From: a virus
Length of the DNA: 64,000 nucleotides
Direction: 5' to 3' (one strand)
UHGV virus genome: UHGV-0218015
Shown here: piece after piece, positions 50 to 63,640 of the stretch
Layout: the number at the start of each line of letters is the position of its first letter
Numbering within the stretch: position 1 is the first letter of the stretch
The notes under the pieces: model-generated
Told to the model about the DNA's origin: nothing
Seen by the model: the letters and a program-made list of their open reading frames with translations, nothing else
Databases searched by the model: none
Position numbers and translations under genes: made by a program

Positions 50-75
50 TTTTGTATAGATATTATCTTAATGAT
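50..75 (+). promoter_or_regulatory. promoter-like motif TAGATATTATC (class 1)
   Basis: tgtatagatattatcttaatg about 35 nt upstream of ATG 102; same 11-mer recurs at 7861, 7940, 21557 and as a variant at 63621. Confidence 0.4.
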
Positions 76-101
76 GTTCCCTTAAAGGAGTATTAACGTT
101 A

Positions 102-425
102 ATGACGCGCGTGCTATTTGGTTTTCTGCTAGACTCTAGCCATTCAGTTCGCTATCGTCCTGAGGAGATTTTAGAAGCGATACAAGAACTGATTTTTCCG
201 GGTGTTCACAATTTACCTGGAGATCGCTTGAAAGTAGCAGAAAGATATTTTGGTTCGGATGCGTGGTTTATGATCAGTGCGTTGGGTCGTGACCACAATA
301 GTCCTTTCTCTTATAAAAATGGAGTTGTGCAAACGTGGTCAAAATACACTTCAATCCAGCTACAGTTTATCATAACTTCTGGGCAGCGATGGAAAAAACA
401 TCCTACGCTTCCGCTTTGCGGATGA
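102..425 (+). CDS. hypothetical protein (107 aa)
   Basis: ATG preceded by AAAGGAG RBS; no recognisable motif. Confidence 0.45.
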   Translation: MTRVLFGFLLDSSHSVRYRPEEILEAIQELIFPGVHNLPGDRLKVAERYFGSDAWFMISALGRDHNSPFSYKNGVVQTWSKYTSIQLQFIITSGQRWKKHPTLPLCG

Positions 426-961
426 CAGTAAAAGAAAAACAGGCCGTTACTGTACAACTGATACACACAGCACTAGAGGATATTTTTCATTCAATCCCCA
501 GAATGCCGAATAGTCGGCTGCCGGATTTTTTAGACCAGTTCACGGATGCTTACACCCTAACGAATTTACTGGTTGCAGATGGTCGTGTAAAACCACCTAA
601 AACAGTGATGTGTCGTCAGGTTCTTGTCCATCGTTCAGCGTTTGGTGAAGTTGCAACAGAACAAGAGCGTGAGGTTTGTGTGCTACGTTCGAAGACATAT
701 CTCTTGGGATTGGCGTTTGATGACTGTTACGACGTTTTGTTGTGTGATGTCGAGTCTTTAGTTAGGGAAGGGTTTGAGGCGGTCGGTGAAGTTTTCAACC
801 CTTATTTAACGGTTGAGATTGAACCACACCTTACGCCGAGAGGTCAAATTGCGATGATGGAGCTTCGTCTTGGAGAAGATATCCGATTTATCCACTACCG
901 GAACTGTTTCCCTGATAAAAGATACGATCCGGATTACCTTACTCGATCACGTGACATATAA
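422..961 (+). CDS. hypothetical protein
   Basis: ORF 335..961; likely start at ATG 422 overlapping upstream stop (ATGA). Confidence 0.4.
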   Translation: MTVKEKQAVTVQLIHTALEDIFHSIPRMPNSRLPDFLDQFTDAYTLTNLLVADGRVKPPKTVMCRQVLVHRSAFGEVATEQEREVCVLRSKTYLLGLAFDDCYDVLLCDVESLVREGFEAVGEVFNPYLTVEIEPHLTPRGQIAMMELRLGEDIRFIHYRNCFPDKRYDPDYLTRSRDI

Positions 962-1301
962 GGCGTATCAACGTATACTCGCGGACGAAAGGTTGTCATC
1001 GTATTCAGGGACAGATGCTGAGCAGTTAAAATATGTCATACTGTCCTTACTAGAGTACCTCATTCCTAATTTTACGGAATCAGGAATGTGGGATACCAAC
1101 TGTGCTGCAACGATAGTAAGGTCTTATCGACCTCGGTCTACAGAAGAAGATGTTCGTCTGATAACATCCTACGTTCGTGGTGCGTTGTGTGAGGAAATGG
1201 GCATTCCTCCCAAAGGGTGGCGTTTTTATTATCGGATAGACGGACATTTTCTTCGTTTTATTCCAAAGAAGGTAACGGATATTTATGACGATCTTTATTG
1301 A
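870..1301 (+). CDS. hypothetical protein
   Basis: long ORF; 5' end overlaps upstream gene, true start uncertain (GTG at 951 possible). Confidence 0.35.
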   Translation: MEKISDLSTTGTVSLIKDTIRITLLDHVTYKAYQRILADERLSSYSGTDAEQLKYVILSLLEYLIPNFTESGMWDTNCAATIVRSYRPRSTEEDVRLITSYVRGALCEEMGIPPKGWRFYYRIDGHFLRFIPKKVTDIYDDLY

Positions 1302-1686
1302 GTTTCCGTGGACAACCGCAGAAATTCTGAAGGTAGTAAAACGAGCCGCCTATCTTCAATACCTGGATGTTTCGGATACAGTAGATTATTACGTAGAACA
1401 GCTCGTTAGGCTGGAGGTGTTACGTCGAAAGTATTGCATCGACGAACTTACAGTACGTGAGCTGTTTGCTGATATTATTCGGCGGTATCCGATTGTAGAA
1501 TCGGAGAGTCCGAACAGTTACTGTATTAATCAAGTTATTGAAGCTGAGCTTCTGAATTCAGTGTCGTTATGGGCGCGACTTGAAGAGGAAGTGGTCGTTT
1601 TACCGAATGAAGGTTTTCTTCTGTTCCACACAGGTTCTGGCGTTTGGCGAATGTTTACAACAGGAGGGGTGGCGTATGGGGCGTGA
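1285..1686 (+). CDS. hypothetical protein (133 aa)
   Basis: ORF with start overlapping upstream stop. Confidence 0.4.
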   Translation: MTIFIEFPWTTAEILKVVKRAAYLQYLDVSDTVDYYVEQLVRLEVLRRKYCIDELTVRELFADIIRRYPIVESESPNSYCINQVIEAELLNSVSLWARLEEEVVVLPNEGFLLFHTGSGVWRMFTTGGVAYGA

Positions 1687-7793: not shown

Positions 7794-7846
7794 GACTTAC
7801 TCCTTGGGGTTACACATAGGAAACGGTCACAGTCTAACTCACATTG

Positions 7847-7873
7847 AAAAATATCTTAGCTAGATATTATCTA
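7847..7873 (+). promoter_or_regulatory. promoter-like element, copy 1 of tandem duplicate
   Basis: 26-nt aaaatatcttagctagatattatcta, identical copy 79 bp downstream; contains TAGATATTATC. Confidence 0.5.
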
Positions 7874-7925
7874 TGTGATGGTTCGGTAGTTAATCATTTT
7901 AAGCTATGTGTGTTTTACGTGTATT

Positions 7926-7952
7926 CTAAAATATCTTAGCTAGATATTATCT
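7926..7952 (+). promoter_or_regulatory. promoter-like element, copy 2 of tandem duplicate
   Basis: identical 26-nt element about 50 nt upstream of ATG 8002. Confidence 0.5.
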
Positions 7953-8001
7953 ACGTGAACCAACACTACAATTGTATTAAACCTTATAAGGATTAAGTAA
8001 A

Positions 8002-9858
8002 ATGGCTAAAGAGTTTATTGACAATCAAAACGACGTTGTGACTGGTGCTGCTGGTGCTGCTGGTGCTGCTGCAGATCCAATTCCGTCTTTCGGTGGCGCG
8101 GGAGCTGCTACTGTGGATAATACCAATGCGGCCAACGCTTTTGGTGGGATGTCTAAAAACATCTCCACTTTCGATAAAGCTTTCGGATACATGTCCTTCG
8201 TGTCCACTGCTTCTCAGTTCACTAGCCTGATTGAGAAGATGGCGGAGAAGAACACATACCTGCGTAACTTCCGTTGGGGTGTCATTGACGGCATCAACTC
8301 TGAAATGGGTTCTGCTGCATACGTGGCTGGTCCGTCCGGCGATAACCATAACGAATGGCTCTACGGCATCCTGTTCTTTGAACATGGCCAGTCCATCCGT
8401 TTCTACGAAATCAACGGTAAAGAAAACTACTACACCCTGGCGCAGCTGTTCAGTCAAGAAGGTGTGATGAACAACATCACTAACCAGATTGCAACTCAAC
8501 ACAATCTGCCGAGCGTACAGTTCATGGTAATGAACTGCGTACCGGAACTGGGTAAAACCATGAACGAAGAATGGGCTAACCAGCTCATGGGCCAGATTGC
8601 ACTGGGTATCTTCGGTCGTCATTCTGGCTACCTGGGCTACCTGAAAATGACCCGTTCTGATCGCTTCACCGCGCAAGTTAGCGTAGTTGAAGAAGGTTCT
8701 GTAACTGACGTTAACGGTTCCGCACAGCGTGCTGACCTGATGGTTGTGGTTGACCATACTCGTACCGGCAACAACGATAATAACCCGACGCTGTTCTCTT
8801 CTGAACGCCTCCAGAATTATCCGAGCGTTGCAGGTGTTGGTTACATCAACCTCCGCCATAAAGGTAAACCTCAGACTCTGACTAACGGTACTCAGGACCT
8901 GCGTCAGCTGGAAGCCGAAGTGGTTGTTTCTCTGATGGATTCTCAATCCTCTGGGGCAATGGCACCTATCGAGCGTCAGCTGATTGAACTGGCCGCGTTC
9001 GCACAAATCGCCACTATCGGCGGCTGGCGTGAACGTTTCATGCAATCGCTGAACAAAACCGATCGTCGCTTCTCCCGCGTTCTGGAGTATGTAGAATGGG
9101 GCAGCGAAAAACCTGACCTGAGCAAAATCGACGGTAACCGTGAAGTTATCGAGAAATGCCTGGACACCTTCGCTAACCCGACTGCGGCTCTGGTGGTGAA
9201 CCATCGTGCAGGTAACGGTATCGGTGGTCTGTCTACTCTCCTGAGTGAAATCGGGATGGGTAACACCAACGCACTGTATACTCTGTTCAACATCCTGGAT
9301 AACATGGCCAGCAACGGCGCGACTAAGTTCAGCACTCGCTTCAAAGCGCTGCTGGGCAAGGACACCAACTTTGAGTGCAAACATGTTGTTATTGCCGGTT
9401 GCCCGACTATCTCTGGTCAGTATTTCAGCAACAGCCAGAAACGTAGCTTCCAGGATATGGACTTGGTTTCCGCTCTGACTAAAGTGGGCGACAACCAGCG
9501 TGATGCGATCGACTACATCAGTGCACAGTCCTACTCTCACCGCTACCTGAATGCGCGTGACCAGCGTCTGTACCTGCTGAAAATGGCTGCGTCCATGTTC
9601 GGTAGCAAACAGCCGCAGGTAACGGGTGAAGCGTCTGACCTGGCGATCAATCCGTTGTTTGGTAAGGCACTGGTGGAATACATCACCGAAAACTGCAACT
9701 TCCAGGTGAACGGTGTTACCGCAGCGAACAGCCTCACTCACTCTGTGTTTGTTAACACGGGTAATGAGAACTTCGCTCTGTCTGGTAGCGGTCCTAACGC
9801 ATTTGGTAGCGATTTCGGTATGTCCTTCGCTGCAACTGACTGGCGTCCGACTTTCTAA
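8002..9858 (+). CDS. abundant 618-aa protein; candidate phage-nucleus shell protein (chimallin-like) or major structural protein
   Basis: extreme codon bias (652-codon stop-free antisense shadow), tandem promoters, strong terminator; Gly/Ala/Phe-rich termini with SFGG/AFGG motifs; sits immediately upstream of the RNAP beta-prime gene; functional call is inference. Confidence 0.55.
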   Translation: MAKEFIDNQNDVVTGAAGAAGAAADPIPSFGGAGAATVDNTNAANAFGGMSKNISTFDKAFGYMSFVSTASQFTSLIEKMAEKNTYLRNFRWGVIDGINSEMGSAAYVAGPSGDNHNEWLYGILFFEHGQSIRFYEINGKENYYTLAQLFSQEGVMNNITNQIATQHNLPSVQFMVMNCVPELGKTMNEEWANQLMGQIALGIFGRHSGYLGYLKMTRSDRFTAQVSVVEEGSVTDVNGSAQRADLMVVVDHTRTGNNDNNPTLFSSERLQNYPSVAGVGYINLRHKGKPQTLTNGTQDLRQLEAEVVVSLMDSQSSGAMAPIERQLIELAAFAQIATIGGWRERFMQSLNKTDRRFSRVLEYVEWGSEKPDLSKIDGNREVIEKCLDTFANPTAALVVNHRAGNGIGGLSTLLSEIGMGNTNALYTLFNILDNMASNGATKFSTRFKALLGKDTNFECKHVVIAGCPTISGQYFSNSQKRSFQDMDLVSALTKVGDNQRDAIDYISAQSYSHRYLNARDQRLYLLKMAASMFGSKQPQVTGEASDLAINPLFGKALVEYITENCNFQVNGVTAANSLTHSVFVNTGNENFALSGSGPNAFGSDFGMSFAATDWRPTF

Positions 9859-9942: not shown

Positions 9943-11310
9943 GTGGAACATAAACTAGAATATTACGGGATTTCAGGGCGACTAATTAGTCACGATAAAA
10001 TGCTACGTGACTGTATACAAGAAGCGGAGGAAAAAGGCTACAAACCCCCGATTATTATCAATGACGTTGCTGCAACGATGGATACCATCGAAGCGTCAGA
10101 GATGATTAACCAAATACTTCAAAACCGAATCGTTGATGAAACACTCAACTCGGCTCCTATTTGCAGTCTGACCTGCGAATCACCTATTACCCATCGTTAT
10201 AATCTTGGGTTACGTTGCCCACATTGTGGTCATGTTGTTTCTGAACATCGGATTACGTCCGAAGTTTGGCTACGTGCACCCGATGAGATAGGTAACTTTA
10301 TCAATCCACGTTTTTGGTCTCTCTTTAATGCTTTCTTTGGCTCTAAGCTGAAAAAATTTAATCGTAACAAAGTGACGGTAGAGCGTGGTTCTGATTTGCT
10401 GCTATGGCTAATCGATCCGTACTACCATCCAGAAAAGGACGAAGGAACACGTGCTCGTGTGGTGAAAAGAATACTTGGTGAATACAGGTTCGAACGGGGA
10501 ATTCGAAACTTTATCGACCACCATCGAACCGTCTTTAATATCCTTACGTCCCCAGAAGCCTGGAAGGAGATTTATCCACCGACGAAAAACAACCGTTATG
10601 AGAGTGAACGCGTACGCTTAGAATGGCGTGAGTTCTTTCAGGAACAATCGTTCTCATTCTTTCCAAGACACCTTCCGATTATTTCATCGAAACTGATCGT
10701 TACAGAGGAGCGCCGACAAGGTATCTTTATCGATCCCGTTTACACCAGTGCCATCGATGCAGTAAAAAATGTGGCGTTGTTGTACACGAATGCACGTCGT
10801 ATCGAACCACGATTTATTATTCGTCGTGCGATCAAAGCGAATCGACAACTTGCGTATTTCTATATTGACCATCGTCAGGAAGTGATGGAAGGTAAACCTG
10901 GGTTCTATCGGGCAAAACTCGGGTCAACGCACGTACCGTGGGGCGGACGTGTGACTATCTCTCCTATCTCTGAACCTCACGATGCGTTGAAAGTTATTGC
11001 GCCTTGGCGTTGGTTAGTTCCTTTGGCGAGTGTTCACATTGAGAACAAGTTAGGTCGACGTGACTACACACCTCGACAGTGTGAACGAATTATTGCATTC
11101 GCGGCAATGCAGTATGTACCGTTGGTGCATGAAATTATTAATGAGCTGATTAAAGAATCCCCCGGCGGATTCGGTTTAATGTTGGAAGTTCTACGTAACC
11201 CAACATTGGTTCAGCTTTCTATTCAGACGTTGTTTATCTCAGCGGTACTGACAGATGTAACACAATGTTCTCTGCGTATTTCTGATCGCGTCATCAAAGC
11301 ACCTAATGCT
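9943..11310 (+). CDS. RNA polymerase beta-prime-like subunit, N-terminal part, exon 1
   Basis: GTG start with RBS; Zn-ribbon C..C...CPHCGH; GKPGFYRAKLGSTHVPWGGRVTISP and RNPTLVQLSIQ resemble bacterial beta-prime [23 protein letters not shown] and RAPTLHRLGIQ (from memory); coding sense ends at ...VIKAPNA. Confidence 0.7.
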
Positions 11311-11660
11311 AAATACTGGCCCACTAGACGGGAAACCTCTAGTGCGTATCCCTCGAATTGCTGGGAACTCCTAAAGCTTACGATCCCGACAGGGTGGCGA
11401 AAGTCAGAAACAATTCGTAAGATAGCCTATGCTAACCAATAATGCTAAGGGTTGAGATAATGGATAACCAGCAGCGATGAAAATCGTTCAACGACTATCG
11501 AAAGGGTAAAACCGAGTAGAGTAGCTGCTTAGTTTAGCGGCGAAGTGAGGGAGACCTACGGGTAGCAATACCTACGGTTATGATATAGTCTGTGCCCATG
11601 TGAAAGCATGGGAGGGTGTCATTGCACACCTGCTCCAAAAGGAACGGAGTGGACAAACAG
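11311..11660 (+). ncRNA. group I self-splicing intron (ORF-less, T4 td-like IA2 type)
   Basis: 350 nt between NA and DFDGD codons; U at -1, G at last position; core-like elements AATTGCTGGGAAC (P), GTTCAACGACTAT (R, 11486-11498), GATATAGTC (S, 11582-11590) with GACTA/TAGTC P7 pairing; P9-like hairpin cccatg tgaaag catggg. Confidence 0.7.
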
Positions 11661-11900
11661 GATTTCGATGGCGATCAGTTACAATGCAGATTGGCAATCG
11701 ACCAGATTGAAATGGAACTGGGCATGGCTTATCGTCCAGACAACGGGTTTATGTCAAGCACGAATGTGGATGAGGTTTCGAGCTGCATGATTCTCCATAA
11801 CGAGAACATCAGCAACATAAACCGTTTCTTCCAGGATACTGAAGAGGACCTGGAGGCCGGTATCGCGCTTGACTCGGAAATATTAAAAATGGCGGGGTAA
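11661..11900 (+). CDS. RNA polymerase beta-prime-like subunit, N-terminal part, exon 2
   Basis: begins DFDGDQL...FMSSTN (cf. NADFDGDQM...MMSTNN); frame open to stop at 11900. Confidence 0.65.
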   Translation, partial: DFDGDQLQCRLAIDQIEMELGMAYRPDNGFMSSTNVDEVSSCMILHNENISNINRFFQDTEEDLEAGIALDSEILKMAG

Positions 11901-12955: not shown

Positions 12956-12957
12956 GG

Positions 12958-15649: not shown

Positions 15650-16294
15650 ATGGTCAATAAAAACTTCCTTAAAGAGAAATGGCTTTACCCGCAGACTGAG
15701 CCGGATCAACAGGGCCGTACCCGTAAACTGGGCATTGAATTGAACGAATTCAATGGTGATGTGGAACTGATGAAATTCCACTACTCCTTTGGTAAAGGCG
15801 AAGGTCTTTATTTCACCGCAGGCTATACTGTTTGCGTTGATATCTTTGAAACCCTGCGTACGGTGATGCAGAAACCCGAAAAAGTCGTTTTCAAATGGGA
15901 AGATGCAAAAGGTAAGAAGGCACCGGTTAGCTTACACGTAGGTCGTGATGAAAACCTGACACCGTTCTTTGCACTGAGCGGCGAGATCCCAGGGGTTGGT
16001 GCGCGCCAGAAGAAATTCTATTTCACTTATCCGAAAGGTTATCGTGTTTTCCGTAATGGACAACTGGTCTCCGATCTGGAACTGGCAGAGCGTCAGCTAC
16101 GCGCGTTCCTGAAAAATGCGGATGTATTCCTGGAAGATTTCCGTGACAACTATAAACCGCGTGAGTTTAATAACGCAGGTGGTGGTAGTTACGGTCGCGG
16201 TGGTTACAATAACGGCGGCAATGGCGGCGGTTATAACAACCAGTCTGGTGCAAAAGCCCCAACACCAACTAACGATTTTGACGATATTATTTAA
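15650..16294 (+). CDS. putative ssDNA-binding-like protein with SSB-type C-terminal tail
   Basis: Gly/Tyr/Asn-rich linker GGGSYGRGGYNNGGNGGGYNNQSG followed by acidic tip NDFDDII, resembling E. coli SSB MDFDDDIPF tip (from memory); N-terminal domain unassigned. Confidence 0.4.
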   Translation: MVNKNFLKEKWLYPQTEPDQQGRTRKLGIELNEFNGDVELMKFHYSFGKGEGLYFTAGYTVCVDIFETLRTVMQKPEKVVFKWEDAKGKKAPVSLHVGRDENLTPFFALSGEIPGVGARQKKFYFTYPKGYRVFRNGQLVSDLELAERQLRAFLKNADVFLEDFRDNYKPREFNNAGGGSYGRGGYNNGGNGGGYNNQSGAKAPTPTNDFDDII

Positions 16295-16313
16295 ATAACG
16301 TAAAACTATAACA

Positions 16314-16345
16314 TAGCCCCAGGATATCCTGGGGCTCTTTATCGT
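16314..16345 (+). terminator. hairpin terminator (weak T-run)
   Basis: agccccagga tatc ctggggct. Confidence 0.4.
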
Positions 16346-16427
16346 GTATGTGTGTAGAATACAGTCGAAGTTATCTGAGATAGATTTTATCTTAGTGCAC
16401 GACTATGCTATTCCTGGAGATTTTAAA

Positions 16428-18056
16428 ATGCGTATTGAAAAGAATCGTGACCGTTTAGTGATAAAATACGGTGAAAAGGAGGTCGCGTTTAATGGTTTCC
16501 GAAACGGACGTAAAGACGTGAATGTGCCAGACGTACGCGATAGTTTCGGACAGATCGTAACGCATGATAAAATCATGTTCATGGAAATCGATCGTTATTG
16601 GTCAACTTTAACGCCCGAAGAGAAAAGCGAACTGTTTTCAGTTTACGAAGAATTAGAGTTGTTAGCTAATGAACCCCCGGAAGTTATTCGTGAACACGTT
16701 CCCACACTCGTCGCGAGAATTGCTAAATTTCATCACGCAGATAGATTCCGCCAGCTTTATCCACACGGCTCGGTGTGGATTCCTCAAAACGTCCACGAAA
16801 CGTACGAAGAGATGTCGTCTAATTATCCAAAAGAGATGACGTATATTGTACAAGATTATTACGAACTGGTGATTTTGTCTTTGATGACAAAACCGTTTAT
16901 TCCCGTATTCTTGATTTTGGACGCTTTTCCTGCAACGCGTGCTTCTGTTGAGTCGAAGCGCAAAAGTGTTTATAACCTGACCTACTGCATGGAGCTATTG
17001 TCGGATACCGAGATTGCCACGCTGCCAGCCATTACAAAGTTGCGCGAGTTTTTAGTGTCGGTGATTTCGAAAGTTCAAGACGGGGGCAGTAAAGGACCCA
17101 ATACTGCAAATCTTACCGTCCTGGCATCTATCTGCGGCTACGGCACGGATATGGTAGAGGAATACATCGTAGCGTTCGCTGTTATCCGTTTAATTGCGAT
17201 GAAGTTAATCGGTGCCGAGCTACCACCGGGTACGATGGTTGAAAACAACATCGTGGCGGGAATGTATTTCAATATTCGACAAGAAATTGAAACGGGCTTC
17301 GCGGGAAAAATTTCCGGTCAAAACGTGATGCTAAAGGCGAATCCTGAGAAAATCATGTTCAACGGCGAGAAGGGGAAAACTTCGTCGATTGACTTGGTTC
17401 AAGCTCGGACTAAAGCACCGATGAAAGAATTCGTTCGTACCCAAGAATTCTTTAATGACTACCGTCGTGCGGTGCGTGCTTTGAATCTCGATATTGCTCC
17501 CGCAGATGTGAAAGTGCTGATAGATTCTATCAACATTAATCATCAGTATCCGTTCTACGAACTCTACGAATGGTTGGTGGCGGCAGTGATGCACCGATTT
17601 GCAGATCGTCGTACATACAAGGAAATCGACTCGGAAGCATTTAAGAACGCGATGGGTATATCCCAAGCCGTTTACATCTATTACGGAATGCCTGAGATTG
17701 CACAGCTGTTAAGTTGTGAGATGATCCGGGCACCACTAAACGGCGGGTATCCTATCGAACCAATCGATAATGAGATTAAAATAAAAACGGATAGATATTA
17801 TCCACAGGCATACCGTAAGCATCGTAATACTTACGAACAGTCAACGTTGAAGGATTCTCTCAGCTTGTTGGTTCGTGAGCATATTGCACCGTTCAACTTC
17901 AATCTCAGGGCAACACCGGAAGCAGCCAGAATGTTACGGTGTGGGACAGTGATGTTGGACTATTCGCCTCATCCGCGACTTCAGAACATGTTAGCAGAAT
18001 TTCTGTTAATTCAAAACAGAAAGAAATGTGAAGAAGTGGCATGGTTTAATCAATAA
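16428..18056 (+). CDS. hypothetical protein
   Basis: ORF 16344..18056; start moved to ATG 16428 with GGAG RBS. Confidence 0.5.
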   Translation: MRIEKNRDRLVIKYGEKEVAFNGFRNGRKDVNVPDVRDSFGQIVTHDKIMFMEIDRYWSTLTPEEKSELFSVYEELELLANEPPEVIREHVPTLVARIAKFHHADRFRQLYPHGSVWIPQNVHETYEEMSSNYPKEMTYIVQDYYELVILSLMTKPFIPVFLILDAFPATRASVESKRKSVYNLTYCMELLSDTEIATLPAITKLREFLVSVISKVQDGGSKGPNTANLTVLASICGYGTDMVEEYIVAFAVIRLIAMKLIGAELPPGTMVENNIVAGMYFNIRQEIETGFAGKISGQNVMLKANPEKIMFNGEKGKTSSIDLVQARTKAPMKEFVRTQEFFNDYRRAVRALNLDIAPADVKVLIDSININHQYPFYELYEWLVAAVMHRFADRRTYKEIDSEAFKNAMGISQAVYIYYGMPEIAQLLSCEMIRAPLNGGYPIEPIDNEIKIKTDRYYPQAYRKHRNTYEQSTLKDSLSLLVREHIAPFNFNLRATPEAARMLRCGTVMLDYSPHPRLQNMLAEFLLIQNRKKCEEVAWFNQ

Positions 18057-21533: not shown

Positions 21534-21549
21534 AATCGTTCCTAAAATA

Positions 21550-21575
21550 AGTGAGATAGATATTATCCTACTGAA
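21550..21575 (+). promoter_or_regulatory. promoter-like motif TAGATATTATC (class 1)
   Basis: gtgagatagatattatcctactg about 30 nt upstream of ATG 21597. Confidence 0.45.
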
Positions 21576-31908: not shown

Positions 31909-33196
31909 GTTCTTAGTAGCGGCATGTAAAGCCGAAGCATGGCGTCGCTTGGTCTGGCGTATTGCTATCTTTAACATGTCGGTGTTTCCAACTGGGCGTG
32001 AAGAACCCGAAGCGTTTGATATTACGTACATTGACGGCTTACCGCATTATTACGCTGTAGAAGACGGCAAGGGCAGTTGGGAACCGATTACCGATGGTGT
32101 AAAGGATCAGGAGCTGTTTATTCCTGAAGAACAGTTCGAACTCCGTCCCGACGACTATCCCGGTTTAGAAGGTCCTATCCCCACGACAGTAGGACGATAC
32201 GTTTTTAACTGGATTGTTATCTGGTATGCTTTCGGTACACGTTTACCCTATCTGGCGATTTCACAAAACCCGTTGGAATACCGCAAAGAGATGCATCGGC
32301 GTTGTTTAGACCATGAATCCGATGAGCCAGAAAACGAAGGTGCGATTCGACCGAGTATGATCGAACGCTTCGTAAGCGGCTTACACGAACTCGCTCCACT
32401 CACGTCAGGTATTGCACCAACCGGTACGTTACGAAGCCTTACGGTGCATCCTGATGCGTATAAAATCCGCGATGCGTTGCTGTTGAAGCACAAGGATGAA
32501 TTAGACGATCCTGCCGTTATCGTTAAGATTGAAAAAGCGTTGGATGAGTTAGACAAAGAGTGGTTGTCAGGTGACCAATCTATTGAGTTTTATAACTCGC
32601 CGAAATCACGGATGCGTCGACGTAAATTAATGCTGATGTACGGTATTGAATCGTCTTTTCAGGAAGGGGGGCATTATACGCTCATTCCGAACGCGTTAGT
32701 TGAGGTTGATAAGGCGGGGATGGAAAACCTGGTTGCGAAATTCAACTCTATTCGTGAAGGTTCATTCTCTCGTGGTGCGGAAACAGCGAAAGGGGGTGAG
32801 CAGGTACGTATTATCCAGATGATTTTCCAGAACCACCGAATCGTCCCTGGCGACTGCGGAACGAAACTAACGTACCCGGTTGTGATTACCGAAGATAACG
32901 TAAAACGTTACGTTGGGATGAATGCGATGGTTAATGGTAAACTGACACCACTGTCTGAAGAATATTTAAAGCAGCAGTTAGGTAAGGTGGTGCGGTTACG
33001 CCGACCCATCTTATGTCAGTATGGCCACATCGACACCTGCACAGCGTGTTCGTCTGCGAATAAAGGGGAAGAACCTCGTGCAATCGCTGCGGATATATCC
33101 TCGGCGTTCTCTAACGTTATGTCCGTGGCAATGGCCGCGATGCACGGTAAAGAGACTGTGGTACACGAATTTAATCCATCGATCCACATTACGTAA
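31895..33196 (+). CDS. hypothetical protein
   Basis: ORF 31877..33196; start moved to ATG 31895 with GAGGAGG RBS. Confidence 0.5.
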   Translation: MTRFEFLVAACKAEAWRRLVWRIAIFNMSVFPTGREEPEAFDITYIDGLPHYYAVEDGKGSWEPITDGVKDQELFIPEEQFELRPDDYPGLEGPIPTTVGRYVFNWIVIWYAFGTRLPYLAISQNPLEYRKEMHRRCLDHESDEPENEGAIRPSMIERFVSGLHELAPLTSGIAPTGTLRSLTVHPDAYKIRDALLLKHKDELDDPAVIVKIEKALDELDKEWLSGDQSIEFYNSPKSRMRRRKLMLMYGIESSFQEGGHYTLIPNALVEVDKAGMENLVAKFNSIREGSFSRGAETAKGGEQVRIIQMIFQNHRIVPGDCGTKLTYPVVITEDNVKRYVGMNAMVNGKLTPLSEEYLKQQLGKVVRLRRPILCQYGHIDTCTACSSANKGEEPRAIAADISSAFSNVMSVAMAAMHGKETVVHEFNPSIHIT

Positions 33197-33724: not shown

Positions 33725-33768
33725 TTACCCTACTCCCGATGGGAGTAGGGTAACGTTTATTTTTTTTT
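33725..33768. terminator. bidirectional hairpin terminator (repeat family copy 1)
   Basis: ttaccctactcc ... ggagtagggtaa plus T-run; same 12-bp stem as 39087..39114. Confidence 0.65.
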
Positions 33769-39086: not shown

Positions 39087-39130
39087 TTACCCTACTCCCG
39101 GAGGAGTAGGGTAACTTTTATTATTTTTTC
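39087..39130. terminator. bidirectional hairpin terminator (repeat family copy 2)
   Basis: ttaccctactcc cgga ggagtagggtaa plus T-rich tract. Confidence 0.65.
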
Positions 39131-48719: not shown

Positions 48720-48737
48720 TCTCTGATTGTTTAGTAA

Positions 48738-48785
48738 GAGAACCACCCTATTACAGGGTGGTTCTCTCTTTTCTTTTTTTTTTTC
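48738..48785 (+). terminator. intrinsic terminator (strong)
   Basis: gagaaccaccct attac agggtggttctc followed by about 19-nt T-run. Confidence 0.75.
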
Positions 48786-48796
48786 GATTAAAAATA

Positions 48797-48821
48797 ATTT
48801 CAGATATATATTACCTAGGTG
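48797..48821 (+). promoter_or_regulatory. promoter-like motif TATATATTACCTAGGTG (class 2)
   Basis: atttcagatatatattacctaggtg; identical 25-mer at 57053..57077; contains TATATTAC. Confidence 0.5.
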
Positions 48822-48874
48822 GGATTATACAATAATCTCTTTACGACTTGTTTATTACGTTTAGGAGAAATATC

Positions 48875-56891: not shown

Positions 56892-56898
56892 AAACTTC

Positions 56899-56940
56899 CC
56901 GTTACCTCTGTGGGTAACGGGAATACCTTTTATTTATTCC
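56899..56940 (+). terminator. hairpin terminator (weak T-run)
   Basis: cccgttacc tctgtg ggtaacggg. Confidence 0.4.
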
Positions 56941-57052
56941 TAAACGCCACACAGAAGTCATTTCTCCATTAAGACGACTAATTACCCTTTAAAAAGAAAA
57001 TTGCGTTAGAATGCGTTTTAGAGCGTTCTAGAGGGTATATGGATTCAAAAAG

Positions 57053-57077
57053 ATTTCAGATATATATTACCTAGGTG
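57053..57077 (+). promoter_or_regulatory. promoter-like motif TATATATTACCTAGGTG (class 2)
   Basis: identical 25-mer to 48797..48821, about 50 nt upstream of ATG 57127. Confidence 0.5.
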
Positions 57078-57126
57078 AGAGTTTACGTAATACTCATTTA
57101 TCGAATACCTAATTAGGAGTTATATC

Positions 57127-57270
57127 ATGATTTCTGTAAAACACAAAAAAGCTATCTTCGCTGTTGTTATCGCTGTTGTTCTGGGTTGCCTGTACCTGGA
57201 TATCGACAAAGGCTACGACACTTGCATCGACAACGGTAATTCCGTTGCACAGTGCACTGGTCGTGGTTAA
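57127..57270 (+). CDS. small putative lipoprotein (47 aa)
   Basis: not in ORF track (under 60 aa); AGGAG RBS; MISVKHKKAIFAVVIAVVLGC: basic N-terminus, hydrophobic core, lipobox-like VLGC; short Cys-containing mature part; own promoter and terminator. Confidence 0.45.
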   Translation: MISVKHKKAIFAVVIAVVLGCLYLDIDKGYDTCIDNGNSVAQCTGRG

Positions 57271-57274
57271 TGTA

Positions 57275-57306
57275 TAAGGCACCTTCGGGTGCCCTTAATT
57301 TTTTTA
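57275..57306 (+). terminator. intrinsic terminator
   Basis: aaggcacc ttcg ggtgccctt followed by T-run. Confidence 0.65.
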
Positions 57307-58140: not shown

Positions 58141-58146
58141 AAGCAA

Positions 58147-58190
58147 CCCCTAATCCCGAAAAGGATTAGGGGTACACTTTATTTATTTTC
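58147..58190 (+). terminator. intrinsic terminator
   Basis: cccctaatcc cgaaaa ggattagggg followed by T-rich tract. Confidence 0.6.
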
Positions 58191-58197
58191 GCAAATT

Positions 58198-58281
58198 CAA
58201 CAGCTTGGATTAAATAAAAGGTTTAAACCTTCTAATAATCGACGAGTACAAATCTTCACCGAAAGGAGAAGTAACTACTAA
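58198..58281 (+). pseudogene. 3' remnant of a small paralogous gene (no start codon)
   Basis: encodes ...QQLGLNKRFKPSNNRRVQIFTERRSNY*, homologous to the C-terminus SQLGTDKRLKPSTNRFTQIFTEKRSEHY* of the 58438..58611 ORF; no in-frame ATG. Confidence 0.4.
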
Positions 58282-58313
58282 ATAAAATAAAGGGGTGCTG
58301 TCACACCCCTTAT

Positions 58314-58350
58314 CATAGCTTTAACTTTTCGAAAAGAGAAGTTAAAGCAG
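58314..58350 (+). repeat. 37-nt palindromic element, copy 1
   Basis: catagctttaacttttcgaaaagagaagttaaagcag, identical at 58715..58751; 9-bp inverted repeat ctttaactt/aagttaaag. Confidence 0.6.
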
Positions 58351-58437
58351 GGTACGCTGTAGCACCAGCGTACCCTTTACAACACCACTACGTTTCCGTA
58401 GTGGATTTCTTTAATCACCCTACAAAGAGGGCTTACC

Positions 58438-58611
58438 ATGAACAATGGTTACTACTTTACCGACAAAATGCTTGCAGAACAGAGTGCAGCAAAGACCAAT
58501 TTACAGCAACGTATCTACAAGTATAGTCAGCTCGGCACGGATAAACGGTTAAAACCGTCTACCAACCGTTTCACGCAGATATTCACTGAAAAGAGGAGTG
58601 AACACTACTAA
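58438..58611 (+). CDS. small protein (57 aa), member of local paralog family
   Basis: not in ORF track; MNNGYYFTDKMLAEQSAAKTNLQQRIYKYSQLG...; preceded by 37-nt element and RBS. Confidence 0.4.
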   Translation: MNNGYYFTDKMLAEQSAAKTNLQQRIYKYSQLGTDKRLKPSTNRFTQIFTEKRSEHY

Positions 58612-58714
58612 CAAATAAAGGAGAGGCGTGTCAGCGCCTCTCCTCCTCGTACAGTAACCTGCCGAGATGGTGGTCGTAGGTATAATAAAAAAGGGGTGGT
58701 GAAGCACCCCTTTT

Positions 58715-58751
58715 CATAGCTTTAACTTTTCGAAAAGAGAAGTTAAAGCAG
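58715..58751 (+). repeat. 37-nt palindromic element, copy 2
   Basis: identical to 58314..58350; followed by a different perfect 9-bp hairpin. Confidence 0.6.
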
Positions 58752-58837
58752 CAGAGACTGGCGGAACAGTCTCTGCTGTACGGTGTCAACACATAAAGTT
58801 GTTGACGTTTTTACAACATTACGAAAGGTAATGAAAA

Positions 58838-58999
58838 ATGAACGAATATCAAATACAGATGTTCAATACCGCGATGCGAAATCGTGAAAAACAAATTCAG
58901 TTTAACCAACGCATGGACGAATATGTTCGTCTCGGCCTCGTTGCGGCACCGAAAACGGTTAACAACCACAATGTTCAGCAACCACCTCTAAGGAGATAA
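58838..58999 (+). CDS. small protein (53 aa), member of local paralog family
   Basis: not in ORF track; MNEYQIQMFNTAMRNREKQIQFNQRMDEYVRLG...; similar to 58438..58611 product. Confidence 0.4.
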   Translation: MNEYQIQMFNTAMRNREKQIQFNQRMDEYVRLGLVAAPKTVNNHNVQQPPLRR

Positions 59000-59142
59000 G
59001 TTACTAACTAATAAAGGGGGTGGTAGCAACACCCCCTACTTAGTTCGGTAGTTGTTTTCCGTTCATAATTAATAGCCTTCTGTTTTTTTTTGCTTTTCGA
59101 GACGCATAAGGGGTTATAGGGGGGAGCCGAAGCTCCCCAGAC

Positions 59143-61243: not shown

Positions 61244-61255
61244 GGTATTAAACAA

Positions 61256-63550
61256 ATGAAAGATACCCGAATCTCTAATCTGGAGAAACTCGTACAAGCT
61301 GGTAACTCGCTGGTACAAAGCGTCATTAGTAACAACACTGCTGGCGAAATGTGGAACACCATCGTTGCTGGTGAATCTGTACGTAGCAACACTAAAGTTT
61401 TTGGTACCCTGCGTGACGACGCTGCACAGCACTACGCAAACGCGTTTGCTGGCGGTAAGAAAATGTCCCACGCTGCGGAAGTTGCTTCTGCAATGATTCT
61501 GGGTGCTGCTGGTCACGGTATGGACTTGCAAGAAAAAGTAGCTCAAGAATACGCTAAACCGGAATTCCATAGCCGTTTTAACCTGGACGTTGCGATTCCT
61601 GGCTCCCAAGCTGGTAACGGCGACTGGGGCAAAGAGCGTATGGTTGTCGCTCAGGAATACTACACCAACAAAGACTACGACAAAAACCTGGGTCTGACCT
61701 GGACGCTGAACGTACGTGCTCTGGAAACCCAGTCTCGTTTTGCTGAGACTCTGTTCCCGACCATCACTGTTGACACTAACGATGTTGGTATTACCGTACG
61801 TACCAAAGTGACCACCGTTTCTCGCGGTGTAATGAACGCACTGCTGAGCAAAGACGTTGTTGAAGATCATCGTCGTAACTTACATGAAGCGCTGACTGAC
61901 CACACTGTTCTCCAGGACGAAGCGATCAACATCGTTCCTTACGTAATGGAAACCGGTGAAAACGCTGAATACTTCGTAAGCGAAGATCTGGTACCGAACG
62001 AATCTGTTCGTCTGGGTCGTGTACCTCCGTACCCGACTAACTACCTGAGCTTTGCTAAAGACACTCTGAACCTGTTCCAGCTGTCCGCGCATCCGGGTAT
62101 CGTAATCGAAGGTTACGACGAAACTGATGAAATCGCGCCGGGCTGTGCTCTGGGCAGCCTGCTGATTTCCGTACGTAAAGCGGCTGAAGATGCAAAAGCA
62201 GGTAAATTCATTAAACTGCACGTTCGCGACATGCAGTTCGCAACCTTCCAGCGCCCTGCTGAAGGTGATGGCCGTGAGCTGGTACTGCAATTCCGTCGTA
62301 CTGCGTTCTCTCTGAACGCGAAAACTACCGACTGGAAAGGCGAAGCTATTCCGGCTCTGAAAACACTGGAACAGAACTCCTACACCCTGCGTTATGTGAT
62401 CACCATCAACATGTCTCTGTTCACTACCGGTCAGTTCGGTGGTAAAGTTGACATCGCTGGTCACAAACTGGAAATCGAAGGTCTGTACGACGCTACCGGT
62501 AACAAAGTTGATATTAAGACTGGTACCGGCAAAGCTGTCCTGGAAAATCTGAAACTTGAACTGATCGGCTGGCGTTTCGATGGTACTCGTACCAACGAAA
62601 ACCGTCGTACCCAGGGTCTGCTGCTCGACCCAATCTGGGAACAAGAAAACTACAAGCTGCAATACGGTTCTCCGATTCTGACCAAGTCTCCGGTTGGCGT
62701 TGAATACGACGATACCGAGCGTCTGGACGACCTGATTTCCGCAGTTAACATCCGTAACGAACAGTTGGCTATCACTCAGACACTGTCTTACACCGAAGCG
62801 GTACGTAACGCTGCTGCAAGCATGATCACTCCGTGGGACAAACCGGCCATTCGTGGTCTGGGCCGTCACTGGGTTGCTCCGTGGTTCAAAGAGTCTGACT
62901 ACAACGTTGATAAAGTTGTACAGTCCCTGGATACCAAAGAAGCACTGATCAACGCTCGTCAGGGTCTGGTACAGCGTATCGGTAATCAGGTAACTCAGGC
63001 TATCCAGGAATCTCGCTTCATTCCTGCGCTGCGTCTGTACACTGCTGATCCGGACATTCTGCCGAAGGTTGTTATTGCAACCGACGAACCGACTGCATCC
63101 ATGCTGCTGCTGGTACAGGGCGACCAACGTCTGCTGGGCGATCGCTACGAATACGAAGTGATCACCACCAACGATGACCGCTGGCGTATCTACAACGCAG
63201 CTGACGGTTCCTGGACTCGTCGTCTGCAATGGTTCCTGAAAGTTCCGACTGCGGACGATGGTTCCTACAACGTGCTGAACTGGGGTAACCACTTCTGGTC
63301 TCCGATCATGGTTACTAACATCAACATTCAGCGTAACGGCTCTACCTCTAAAGAGCTGGCCGTACAGCCGCGTAACGCGCACATCTGCCACTGCCCGATC
63401 ACTGGTCTGATCTGGGTTAAAGGCATCACCAAACTGGTTGAAGAAAAACTGGCTTACAATGTTTCTGTTGAACAGAACGGTCAGAAACAAACCGAAGGTG
63501 GTGTAGCAGGTAACGTTGCTGGCGAAGGCAAAGCTGCTGCCGGTAAGTAA
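61256..63550 (+). CDS. abundant 764-aa protein; putative major capsid protein
   Basis: extreme codon bias (536-codon antisense shadow), strong terminator; size fits phiKZ-type major capsid proteins; N-terminal AGE/GES motifs; assignment by size and expression only. Confidence 0.5.
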   Translation: MKDTRISNLEKLVQAGNSLVQSVISNNTAGEMWNTIVAGESVRSNTKVFGTLRDDAAQHYANAFAGGKKMSHAAEVASAMILGAAGHGMDLQEKVAQEYAKPEFHSRFNLDVAIPGSQAGNGDWGKERMVVAQEYYTNKDYDKNLGLTWTLNVRALETQSRFAETLFPTITVDTNDVGITVRTKVTTVSRGVMNALLSKDVVEDHRRNLHEALTDHTVLQDEAINIVPYVMETGENAEYFVSEDLVPNESVRLGRVPPYPTNYLSFAKDTLNLFQLSAHPGIVIEGYDETDEIAPGCALGSLLISVRKAAEDAKAGKFIKLHVRDMQFATFQRPAEGDGRELVLQFRRTAFSLNAKTTDWKGEAIPALKTLEQNSYTLRYVITINMSLFTTGQFGGKVDIAGHKLEIEGLYDATGNKVDIKTGTGKAVLENLKLELIGWRFDGTRTNENRRTQGLLLDPIWEQENYKLQYGSPILTKSPVGVEYDDTERLDDLISAVNIRNEQLAITQTLSYTEAVRNAAASMITPWDKPAIRGLGRHWVAPWFKESDYNVDKVVQSLDTKEALINARQGLVQRIGNQVTQAIQESRFIPALRLYTADPDILPKVVIATDEPTASMLLLVQGDQRLLGDRYEYEVITTNDDRWRIYNAADGSWTRRLQWFLKVPTADDGSYNVLNWGNHFWSPIMVTNINIQRNGSTSKELAVQPRNAHICHCPITGLIWVKGITKLVEEKLAYNVSVEQNGQKQTEGGVAGNVAGEGKAAAGK

Positions 63551-63565
63551 TCTTGCTTAAAAAGA

Positions 63566-63606
63566 GTCTAAGCCCTTCGGGGCTTAGACCTTTTATTTTT
63601 TTCTTT
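63566..63606 (+). terminator. intrinsic terminator
   Basis: gtctaagccc ttcg gggcttagac followed by T-run. Confidence 0.7.
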
Positions 63607-63614
63607 CTATTATT

Positions 63615-63640
63615 TTTTGGATAGATATTATTAAAGGGAG
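63615..63640 (+). promoter_or_regulatory. promoter-like motif (class 1 variant ATAGATATTATT)
   Basis: ggatagatattattaaagggag just after the terminator. Confidence 0.35.

What the first reader, a model, noticed from the sequence alone, without database searches (positions are those of the whole stretch)
50..63640. Two families of recurring AT-rich promoter-like motifs
TAGATATTATC occurs five times (57, 7861, 7940, 21557, variant at 63621), always 30-60 nt upstream of a gene start and twice in a tandem duplicate. A second 25-mer, ATTTCAGATATATATTACCTAGGTG, occurs identically at 48797 and 57053 and contains TATATTAC, which I recall as the phiKZ early-promoter core. Two sequence classes suggest two temporal classes, or two polymerases, reading these genes.
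Basis: partly seen in the sequence, partly recalled or inferred. Interest (0 to 1): 0.4.

Follow-up and report, generated by a model that had tools for sequence, protein, structure and literature searches.

The report
Jumbo-phage early promoters, one family
The recurring AT-rich words are nine copies of the conserved early promoter that phiKZ-like giant phages are thought to read with the RNA polymerase carried in the virion; the two "families" are variants of one promoter, so the feature is real but of a known kind.

Summary
TAGATATTATC is exact at 57, 7861, 7941, 17792 and 21557, with one-mismatch copies at 16381 and 63622. The 25-mer is exact at 48797 and 57053. This is far above chance (11 matches against 0.9 expected).

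The window comes from a phiKZ-like, nucleus-forming jumbo phage that is syntenic with Salmonella phage SPN3US.

The two motifs are one family:
- The cores differ at 2 of 11 positions (TA[G/T]ATATTA[T/C]C).
- Both share the A-rich tract, the TTTCAGA-like element and the downstream GTGA, at identical spacing.
- A matrix trained on one type ranks the other type immediately next among 127,934 positions.
- A consensus published for phages OBP and N1M2 fits both types equally well.
- phiKZ early promoters have the same spacing.

The sites follow terminators and precede the nuclear-shell (chimallin) gene and genes for the non-virion RNA polymerase. They lie at orthologous positions in four other genera.

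The "two polymerases or temporal classes" idea is not supported. One real sub-distinction exists. Sites with a ...TTAC[C/T] core are followed by a covarying hairpin at the predicted 5' end of the transcript, and this subtype is conserved by position.

Verdict: new member of a known kind, modest interest.

The parts
41..74 (+). Early-type promoter, TAGATATTATC core at 57-67; predicted start at G73. It precedes ORF 102-425.
   Evidence: 38.0 bits; 3 of 33 mismatches to the OBP consensus. Orthologous sites lie in SPN3US at 7393, Asesino at 6389, ChrisDB at 6118 and Wellington at 5830 (locus coordinates for the last three).
7845..7878 (+). Distal copy of the tandem promoter pair upstream of the chimallin-like gene 8002-9858; core 7861-7871.
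   Evidence: 43.1 bits; 36-nt unit, 92% identical, spacing 80. Tandem pairs spaced 87-93 nt occur at the same place in four relatives.
7925..7958 (+). Proximal copy of the tandem pair; core 7941-7951, 61 nt before ATG 8002.
   Evidence: (46.1 bits, the best site).
8002..9858 (+). Downstream gene: homolog of SPN3US ACC60_gp244-position protein ACQ60_gp244, the proposed nuclear-shell protein chimallin.
   Evidence: 51% identity to SPN3US 15768-17621; phrog_8316; PMC9365700 names SPN3US gp244 a diverged chimallin. Synteny DNA polymerase / minus-strand gene / shell protein / RNAP subunit matches phiKZ gp50-gp55. No direct sequence match to solved chimallins.
16365..16398 (+). Promoter with variant core TAGATTTTATC (16381-16391). 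It follows terminator 16315-16336 and precedes ATG 16428.
   Evidence: 39.3 bits; terminator. Orthologs in four relatives.
17776..17809 (+). Intragenic promoter inside ORF 16428-18056; core 17792-17802, 295 nt before gene 18087-19793. The core doubles as codons D-R-Y-Y.
   Evidence: 31.3 bits; leave-one-out 18.4 bits, rank 9. Conserved with identical codon choice in SPN3US (25229), Asesino (24351), ChrisDB (24337) and Wellington (24273). Fit to the OBP consensus is weak (8 of 33 mismatches).
21541..21574 (+). Promoter, core 21557-21567, 40 nt before the non-virion RNAP genes 21597-23834 and 23834-25933.
   Evidence: 37.5 bits; RNAP beta phrogs; Rpb2 domain 6; the SPN3US homolog gp35 is a non-virion RNAP subunit. 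Orthologs in four relatives.
48789..48822 (+). Promoter of the ...TTACC subtype; core TATATATTACC 48805-48815, predicted start G48821. It follows terminator 48737-48767 and precedes ATG 48875.
   Evidence: 38.3 bits; 3 of 33 mismatches. The ortholog in SPN3US at 56297 is the same subtype.
48821..48839 (+). Predicted 5'-terminal leader hairpin GGGATTAT-aca-ATAATCTC.
   Evidence: -5.7 kcal/mol, z -2.9; 8-bp stem anchored at +1. In the 97%-identical contig L009 the stem is GAGATTAC/GTAATCTC.
57045..57078 (+). Promoter of the ...TTACC subtype; core 57061-57071, predicted start G57077. It precedes a 47-codon membrane-protein ORF 57127-57270 and terminator 57278-57293.
   Evidence: (42.7 bits). The ortholog in SPN3US at 65416, before the 47-aa gp200, is the same subtype.
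57079..57095 (+). Weak leader hairpin GAGT-N9-ACTC. It is the weakest of the set.
   Evidence: (-2.7 kcal/mol, z -0.5).
63606..63639 (+). Promoter with core TAGATATTATT (63622-63632). It follows the major-capsid gene 61256-63550 and terminator 63566-63589, and precedes a mini-ORF at 63670 and an ORF from 63733.
   Evidence: 35.2 bits; 2 of 33 mismatches. SPN3US has two sites (72489, 72687) at the same place, leading to gp190 and the non-virion RNAP gene gp189.
16315..16336 (+). Intrinsic-terminator-like hairpin immediately upstream of promoter 16381.
   Evidence: 9 pairs, 7 G-C.
48737..48767 (+). Terminator-like hairpin plus T-run upstream of promoter 48805.
   Evidence: 13 pairs.
56896..56923 (+). 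Terminator-like hairpin upstream of promoter 57061.
   Evidence: 12 pairs.
63566..63589 (+). Terminator-like hairpin upstream of promoter 63622.
   Evidence: 10 pairs.

Best explanation
All nine sites are copies of one promoter type, the extended AT-rich early promoter of phiKZ-like (Chimalliviridae) jumbo phages.

Anatomy, shown here: an A-rich tract around -30, a TTTCAGA-like element around -20, the core TA[G/T]ATATTA[T/C]C around -16 to -6, and GTGA at the predicted start.

Mechanism, inferred by homology to phiKZ and 201phi2-1, where such sites were mapped as early transcription starts:
- The multisubunit RNA polymerase packaged in the virion is injected with the DNA.
- It recognises this element without host RNA polymerase and starts about 5-6 nt downstream of the core, at the G of GTG.
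- This launches early operons that include the nuclear-shell (chimallin) gene and the genes of the second, non-virion RNA polymerase. That second polymerase then reads middle and late genes.

The two 'families' are allelic variants at two tolerated positions. One is TAGATATTATC, the majority form in the SPN3US-like clade and like the OBP/N1M2 consensus. The other is TATATATTACC, identical to the phiKZ/201phi2-1 core.

The ...TTACC variant also specifies a short stem-loop at the very 5' end of its transcript. I infer that this tunes transcript stability or promoter-proximal elongation, not polymerase choice.
For: (1) Enrichment. 11 matches against 0.89 expected, and the 25-mer twice against 0 expected. 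A 34-nt matrix gives exactly nine hits of 31-46 bits, all on the + strand; the next best is 8.1 bits and the shuffle maximum is 20.

(2) One family.
- A matrix trained only on the seven TAGATATTATC-type sites ranks the two 25-mer sites 8th and 9th of 127,934 positions. On flanks alone they rank 7th and 14th.
- The OBP consensus, derived independently of this window, gives 2-5 mismatches of 33 for eight sites of both types. The next non-site is at 8-9 mismatches.
- phiKZ early promoters show the same spacing, TTTxAGA-N2-TATATTAC-N5-TGA.
- Hybrid cores occur in relatives.

(3) Context.
- The phage encodes split beta/beta' subunits of two RNA polymerases (assignments from PMC5105663).
- Sites lie directly before non-virion RNAP genes (21557), before the chimallin homolog followed by another non-virion RNAP subunit (7861/7941), and, via synteny, before a further non-virion RNAP gene (63622).
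- No site lies immediately before the virion RNAP gene 31877 or before the capsid and internal-head genes.
- Four sites follow strong terminators.
- Predicted leaders for the seven gene-proximal sites are 24-54 nt. phiKZ 5' UTRs are typically 31-40 nt.

(4) Purifying selection.
- All nine window sites have counterparts at orthologous positions in SPN3US.
- The five in the left part of the window also have counterparts in Asesino, ChrisDB and Wellington. These genera share only about 45-53% protein identity with the window.
- The conserved features include the tandem pair and the intragenic site with fixed synonymous codons.
- The exact 25-mer occurs in 7 IMG/VR contigs of this clade.

(5) Literature. 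Such motifs were shown to be early promoters wherever transcripts were mapped, namely phiKZ, AR9, phiR1-37 and 201phi2-1.
Against: - No transcript 5' ends, timing data or polymerase-dependence data exist for this phage or, in the papers searched, for any SPN3US-like phage. The start site, the early timing and the virion-polymerase dependence are inferred by homology.
- The virion polymerase has never been shown in vitro to read such promoters in any phiKZ-like phage.
- In 201phi2-1 not all non-virion RNAP genes had proximal early promoters, so gene context is only suggestive.
- Site 17792 is not separable from background by the OBP consensus alone (8 mismatches). Its conservation could partly reflect the encoded D-R-Y-Y peptide.
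Confidence: 0.85

Rival explanations
1. One reading: the two sequence classes are read by two different polymerases, or define two different temporal classes such as early versus middle.
For: The subtype is discrete in practice. The ...TTAC[C/T] cores go with TAGGTGAG and a 5' hairpin: 8 of 9 against 4 of 21 for the others (Fisher p = 6e-4). The subtype is kept at orthologous loci across genera. ATTACC resembles the phiKZ middle-promoter element AAAATTACC (PMC4666361).
Against: Both types share every upstream and downstream element at identical spacing and retrieve one another. Both fit a single published early consensus, in which the two differing positions are written as degenerate or vary between phages (K; T/C). 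Hybrid cores exist. The phiKZ middle element sits about 22-24 nt upstream of its start, not at -10. Middle and late promoters of these phages have no extended consensus.
Confidence: 0.08
2. The ...TTACC sites form a functionally distinct tier within the early class. Their obligatory 5'-terminal stem-loop, often followed by a T-run, changes transcript fate. Possibilities are protection from 5'-end-dependent decay, promoter-proximal attenuation giving short 5' RNAs, or a protein-binding handle. This is compatible with the best explanation rather than exclusive of it.
For: An anchored stem of at least 6 bp occurs in 14 of 19 such leaders, against 5.9% of shuffles and 4 of 16 of the other type. 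There is covariation at stem positions +3 to +8. Mean folding energy is -5.9 against -1.9 kcal/mol, p = 2.5e-4. The 25-27 nt promoter block is exactly conserved in 7 contigs. In 201phi2-1, starts followed at once by termination give 5' UTR-derived small RNAs.
Against: The stems are short, AT-rich and weak (-3 to -9 kcal/mol). Window site 57061 has only a 4-bp stem. Some of the 19 leaders are orthologs and so not independent, and twelve loci were found by matching the 25-mer itself. A few sites of the other type also have stems. No experiment bears on this.
Confidence: 0.35
3. The sites are host sigma-70 promoters read by the bacterial RNA polymerase early in infection.
For: TATTAT inside the core matches TATAAT at 5 of 6 positions, and the sites are AT-rich and upstream of genes.
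Against: None of the nine sites passes a sigma-70 scan, because there is no -35 hexamer at 16-18 nt. Sigma-70-like sites are fewer than in shuffles across the window: 24 against 34.6, 25 against 30.6, 21 against 29.8. The ...TTACC type has C at the invariant last -10 position. The conserved region extends over about 34 nt, including positions sigma-70 does not read. phiKZ development is independent of host RNA polymerase.
Confidence: 0.03
4. The sites are operators for a dimeric DNA-binding regulator, since GATA-T-TATC is an imperfect palindrome.
For: The minus strand matches the 11-mer with one mismatch at 7863 and 7943.
Against: The ...TTACC variant destroys the palindrome, yet it is the most conserved form. 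The conserved flanks are asymmetric (A-rich upstream, GTGA downstream). All sites are co-oriented with the downstream gene in the window and in SPN3US.
Confidence: 0.03

Closest known systems
phiKZ early promoters (core TATATTAC; Ceyssens 2014, refined by dRNA-seq in PMC8244752)
   Same: The core is identical in the two 25-mer sites. The spacing of the upstream TTTxAGA element and the downstream TGA is the same. There is an A/T-rich upstream tract. A site lies before the nuclear-shell gene, which in phiKZ also has two starts. The gene order around it is the same.
   Different: Seven of nine window sites carry GATATTAT instead of TATATTAC. The host is enterobacterial, and the genome is about 46% G+C instead of AT-rich. 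Nothing has been mapped experimentally in this phage.
Predicted early promoter of Pseudomonas phage OBP and Klebsiella phage N1M2 (BSHAWWWWWTTTYARRYAKATATTATYWWADTG; PMC7058600)
   Same: Eight window sites fit with 2-5 mismatches of 33. The K position covers the G/T difference between the two 'families'. The downstream GTG is shared.
   Different: That consensus has ATTATY. The window's 25-mer sites have ATTACC, one of their three mismatches. The OBP/N1M2 motif is itself only a bioinformatic prediction.
201phi2-1 early promoters mapped by ONT-cappable-seq (PMC11512511)
   Same: An AT-rich motif about 10 bp upstream of mapped starts, conserved at -10, -20 and -30. The consensus ends in ...TATATTACDWHDGTG, as in the 25-mer. 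Regulatory elements keep their position relative to homologous genes.
   Different: Only six such promoters were mapped there, all before hypothetical genes. Some non-virion RNAP genes lacked proximal early promoters.
SPN3US-like phages (Seoulvirus, Erskinevirus, Machinavirus, Wellingtonvirus)
   Same: The same motif, the same two core variants and the same positions. These include the tandem pair before the chimallin gene, the intragenic site and the ...TTACC sites with hairpins.
   Different: In the window the tandem pair has been homogenised: 36 nt at 92% identity, both with TAGATATTATC. Relatives have TTGATATTATC or TGTATATTATC followed by CAGATATTAT[C/T]. I found no paper in the held library that describes the motif for this clade.
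Coliphage N4 virion-RNAP early promoters
   Same: The concept is the same: a virion-carried polymerase reads a dedicated early promoter. A hairpin is part of the conserved unit.
   Different: N4 uses a single-subunit polymerase, and its DNA hairpin lies upstream of the start and is the recognition element. Here the hairpin lies downstream of the predicted start and is present in only one subtype.

Membership tests
phiKZ-like (Chimalliviridae) early / virion-RNAP promoter | Highly conserved AT-rich core of about 10 nt (TATATTAC or KATATTATY). | tested here: met
   Two sites carry TATATTAC exactly. Five carry GATATTATC, which fits KATATTATY, and two differ from it by one base.
phiKZ-like (Chimalliviridae) early / virion-RNAP promoter | Extended architecture at fixed spacing: A/T-rich tract, TTT.ARR element, core, then (G)TG(A) at the start. 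| tested here: met
   Column consensus ..AAAATAT.T.AGATAGATATTATCTA.GTGA. 2-5 mismatches of 33 to the OBP consensus for eight sites. Same spacing as seven phiKZ sites. Site 17792 fits weakly (8 mismatches).
phiKZ-like (Chimalliviridae) early / virion-RNAP promoter | The genome encodes two sets of split multisubunit RNAP beta/beta' genes, one virion and one non-virion. | tested here: met
   RNAP-beta phrogs at 9943, 21597, 23834 and 31877. Rpb2 domain 6 at 21597. By synteny with SPN3US, 31877 is virion beta'M (gp42), and 21597/23834 are gp34/gp35, non-virion.
phiKZ-like (Chimalliviridae) early / virion-RNAP promoter | Placement at the head of early operons, including non-virion RNAP genes, and not immediately before virion genes. 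| tested here: met
   Sites lie before non-virion RNAP genes and the chimallin homolog. None lies immediately before the capsid, internal-head, virion-structural or virion-RNAP genes in the window. In SPN3US 21 strong sites show the same pattern. Timing itself was not measured.
phiKZ-like (Chimalliviridae) early / virion-RNAP promoter | Position conserved relative to homologous genes in related phages. | tested here: met
   All nine window sites have positional orthologs in SPN3US. Five of them also have orthologs in Asesino, ChrisDB and Wellington.
phiKZ-like (Chimalliviridae) early / virion-RNAP promoter | A primary transcript 5' end about 10 nt downstream of the core centre. Transcription in the first minutes, independent of host RNAP and of new protein synthesis. 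| not testable with these tools
   No transcriptome for this phage or for SPN3US-like phages was found in the held library.
Bacterial sigma-70 promoter | A -35 hexamer (TTGACA-like) 16-18 nt upstream of a TATAAT-like -10 with invariant A2 and T6. | tested here: not met
   None of the nine sites is called by the sigma-70 scan. The ...TTACC type has C at the T6 position.
phiKZ middle promoter (AAAATTACC / TACT element about 22-24 nt upstream of the start) | A short A-rich...TTAC[C/T] element centred near -22 to -24, without an extended -10 consensus. | tested here: inconclusive
   ATTACC is contained in the two 25-mer sites, but it is embedded in the full early architecture. A second start about 20 nt further downstream cannot be tested here.
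N4-type hairpin promoter for a virion RNAP | A DNA hairpin upstream of the start site serves as the recognition element. | tested here: not met
   The hairpin begins at the predicted +1 to +3, downstream of the core, and is absent from most sites.

The most novel reading that the evidence does not exclude
The ...TTAC[C/T] sites are a separate, positionally conserved tier of early promoter. Their near-invariant block of about 27 nt plus a covarying 5'-terminal stem-loop would give those transcripts a distinct fate. Options are extra stability in the first minutes, promoter-proximal attenuation producing short 5' RNAs, or dual use by the second polymerase through the ATTACC element that resembles the phiKZ middle motif. 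That would be a hidden second layer in the early programme of nucleus-forming jumbo phages.
Probability: 0.3. Interest if true: 0.45.

Novelty: new member of a known kind. Interest (0 to 1): 0.27.

Why it matters
The result gives a usable early-promoter model for an uncultivated SPN3US-like jumbo phage and for its cultivable relatives, namely a 34-nt matrix with a predicted start at the G of GTG. It marks which genes are probably expressed first: the nuclear-shell protein, the second RNA polymerase, several unknown proteins and a 47-residue membrane protein. It shows that the phiKZ-type and OBP-type cores coexist in one genome and are read as one family, which constrains what the still-unpurified virion polymerase must recognise. 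The hairpin-bearing subtype and the promoter embedded in coding sequence are concrete, testable details. None of this overturns current understanding.

Tried and rejected
- **Sigma-70 reading.** Scanned the whole window. No site qualifies, and sigma-70-like sites are under-represented.
- **A second, independent promoter class in the window.** Word recurrence in the 29 intergenic segments finds only the promoter core, the ribosome-binding context CTAAAGGAGTAT and terminator tails.
- **TATG-type late motif.** TATGTG is depleted (18 against 31.7 expected) and CTATGTG is at chance.
- **Leader word CGACTAT.** It is frequent in SPN3US early leaders but not enriched in the window (12 against 8.1 expected).
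- **Ungapped RNAalifold on the leaders.** It gave no structure because loop lengths differ. I replaced it with an anchored-stem count with shuffles and a comparison set.
- **Direct sequence match of ORF 8002-9858 to solved chimallins or to Pfam.** It failed. The assignment rests on homology to SPN3US gp244, literature and synteny.
- **Literature.** Searches found no description of the motif in SPN3US-like phages and no transcriptome. Ceyssens 2014 is not held, so the exact phiKZ start position is taken from reviews and later papers.
- **tRNA scan.** Nothing found.

Full report
**Observation.** The words are in the sequence.
- TAGATATTATC is exact on the + strand at 57, 7861, 7941, 17792 and 21557. 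One-mismatch copies lie at 16381 (TAGATTTTATC) and 63622 (TAGATATTATT).
- Allowing one mismatch there are 11 matches on both strands against 0.89 expected, and none of 100 shuffles reaches 11.
- The 25-mer ATTTCAGATATATATTACCTAGGTG is exact at 48797 and 57053, with none expected.
- The tandem duplicate is a 36-nt unit, 92% identical, spaced 80 nt.
- "Always 30-60 nt upstream of a gene" holds for five sites. It fails for the distal tandem copy (141 nt), for 17792 (intragenic, 295 nt before the next gene) and, narrowly, for the two 25-mer sites (70 and 66 nt).

**What the window is.**
- It carries a split family-B DNA polymerase, four split RNA-polymerase beta/beta' genes, internal head proteins and a major capsid gene.
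- It is collinear with Salmonella phage SPN3US from about 7 to 72 kb.
- Protein identity to SPN3US and to Erwinia jumbo phages is only about 45-53% for the protein tested. Nucleotide similarity is patchy, about 73%.
- Two IMG/VR contigs are 96-97% identical to parts of the window.
- By synteny and the SPN3US genetics paper, 21597-23834 and 23834-25933 are non-virion RNAP subunits, and 31877-33196 is a virion RNAP subunit.
- ORF 8002-9858 is the homolog of the SPN3US protein that Laughlin et al. proposed as a diverged chimallin, the nuclear-shell protein. The gene order DNA polymerase / minus-strand gene / shell gene / RNAP subunit is the same as phiKZ gp50-gp55.

**One family, not two.** Aligned on the core, the two motifs differ at 2 of 11 positions (TAGATATTATC against TATATATTACC). 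They share an A-rich tract, a TTTCAGA/TCTTAGC-like element ending in AGA, and GTGA five to six bases after the core.
- A 34-nt matrix built from the nine sites finds exactly those nine (31-46 bits), all on the + strand. The next best position scores 8.1 bits and the shuffle maximum is 20.
- Because that is circular, I cross-validated. A matrix trained only on the seven TAGATATTATC-type sites ranks the two 25-mer sites 8th and 9th of 127,934 positions, and 7th and 14th when the 11-mer itself is masked. The reverse test and leave-one-out behave the same way.
- A fully independent test uses the early-promoter consensus published for phage OBP (PMC7058600). Eight window sites of both types fit with 2-5 mismatches of 33. 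Site 17792 has 8, and the best non-sites have 8-9.
- phiKZ's own TATATTAC sites have the same spacing, TTTxAGA-N2-TATATTAC-N5-TGA.
- Relatives carry hybrid cores such as TAGATATTACC and TATATGTTATC.

**Evidence that the sites function.**
- Four sites lie just downstream of strong terminator hairpins (16315, 48737, 56896, 63566).
- All sites are co-oriented with the next gene.
- Predicted leaders for the seven gene-proximal sites are 24-54 nt. The typical phiKZ 5' UTR is 31-40 nt.
- The downstream genes are the chimallin homolog followed by a non-virion RNAP subunit, the two adjacent non-virion RNAP genes, several conserved unknowns and a 47-codon membrane-protein ORF that is closed by its own terminator.
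- No site lies immediately before the virion RNAP gene or before the capsid and internal-head genes.

The strongest evidence is comparative.
- Every window site has a counterpart at the orthologous place in SPN3US.
- The five sites in the left part of the window recur in Asesino, ChrisDB and Wellington, which belong to different genera.
- This includes the tandem pair before the chimallin gene, with spacing 87-93 nt in the relatives.
- It also includes the intragenic site. There the core is read as D-R-Y-Y with the same synonymous codons in all five phages, which points to selection on the DNA beyond the protein.
- Sigma-70-like sites are under-represented in the window, and none coincides with a motif site.

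**A real subtype.**
- In an unbiased set (the window plus the whole SPN3US genome), 8 of 9 sites with a ...TTAC[C/T] core are followed by a stem of at least 6 bp anchored at the predicted +1 to +3. Only 4 of 21 other sites are (Fisher p = 6e-4).
- In the larger, partly ascertained set, 14 of 19 have such a stem, against 5.9% of shuffles. The stem sequences covary, for example GAGATTAC/GTAATCTC, GAGAGT/ACTCTC, GATAGA/TCTATC and GAGCGTTA/TAACGCTT.
- The subtype is kept at orthologous loci: 48805 corresponds to SPN3US 56297, and 57061 to 65416.
- The promoter block itself is exactly conserved in seven contigs of the clade.
- Window site 57061 has only a weak 4-bp stem.

**Most likely mechanism.**
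- Shown: a single, strongly conserved, oriented element of about 34 nt at the heads of operons in a phage with two multisubunit polymerases, matching in sequence and spacing the elements that were mapped as early promoters in phiKZ and 201phi2-1.
- Inferred: the injected virion polymerase recognises it and starts at the G of GTG. The resulting transcripts encode the shell protein and the second polymerase.
- Inferred: the G/T and T/C differences are tolerated positions.
- Inferred with less confidence: the 5' stem-loop of the ...TTACC subtype modulates transcript stability or early elongation.

**Comparison and novelty.** This is the known early-promoter family of phiKZ-related phages, in a previously undescribed SPN3US-like phage.
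- I found no paper in the held library that spells out the motif for this clade. Reviews, however, state that such a motif can be found bioinformatically in every RNAP-encoding jumbo phage.
- The coexistence of the phiKZ-type and OBP-type cores in one genome, the hairpin-bearing subtype, the conserved tandem pair before the shell gene and the dual-coding intragenic promoter are modest additions.
- I rate it as a new member of a known kind, with interest about 0.27.

**Dead ends.**
- No second promoter class could be detected by word recurrence.
- TATG-type words are not enriched.
- The SPN3US leader word CGACTAT is not enriched here.
- Ungapped consensus folding failed for technical reasons.
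- The chimallin assignment could not be confirmed by direct sequence search against solved structures or Pfam.

Noticed in passing
window 11301-11612 (+): A group I intron (Rfam RF00028, 60.5 bits, E 7e-13) interrupts the non-virion RNAP subunit gene. The uninterrupted SPN3US homolog aligns aa 6-458 to 9958-11316 (frame 1) and aa 445-528 to 11613-11876 (frame 3).
   Followed up: partly
window 17790-17804 (+), inside ORF 16428-18056: The intragenic promoter core is read as codons D-R-Y-Y (GAT AGA TAT TAT). The same codons are kept in SPN3US, Asesino, ChrisDB and Wellington despite about 50% protein divergence. It looks like a dual-coding element.
   Followed up: partly
window 33725-33753 and 39087-39114: Two bidirectional terminator hairpins share almost the same stem (TTACCCTACTCCC...GGGAGTAGGGTAA). 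Similar GTACCCTACTCC...GGAGTAGGGT stems precede promoters in related contigs L012 and L013. This suggests a conserved terminator sequence motif.
   Followed up: no
window 58141-59142: A 1-kb stretch has no ORF above 57 codons but six strong terminator-like hairpins, mostly on the - strand. It also has a 65-nt direct repeat, 91% identical, at 58286-58350 and 58687-58751. Possibly small RNA or mini-gene cassettes; no Rfam or tRNA hit.
   Followed up: partly
window 57127-57293: A self-contained mini transcription unit: promoter 57061, a 47-codon ORF with a hydrophobic helix (MISVKHKKAIFAVVIAVVLGCLYL...), then terminator 57278-57293. SPN3US has a 47-aa ORF (gp200) at the same place.
   Followed up: no
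SPN3US loci L001, L014-L017; window 16400: The word AATCGACTAT lies 12-25 nt upstream of the ribosome-binding site in about nine SPN3US early leaders. In the window it occurs in a leader only at 16400 and is not enriched overall.
   Followed up: partly
window 7843-7958 versus relatives: The tandem promoter copies before the chimallin gene are nearly identical in the window. In four relatives they differ: TTGATATTATC or TGTATATTATC, then CAGATATTAT[C/T]. This suggests recent homogenisation or re-duplication in this lineage.
   Followed up: partly
window 63670-63719: A 16-codon mini-ORF with a good ribosome-binding site lies between promoter 63622 and the next long ORF (63733 onward). SPN3US has a second promoter copy in the equivalent interval.
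   Followed up: no
window-wide, upstream of start codons: The ribosome-binding context CTAAAGGAGTAT recurs verbatim before several genes. It is the only other recurrent intergenic word besides terminator tails.
   Followed up: no
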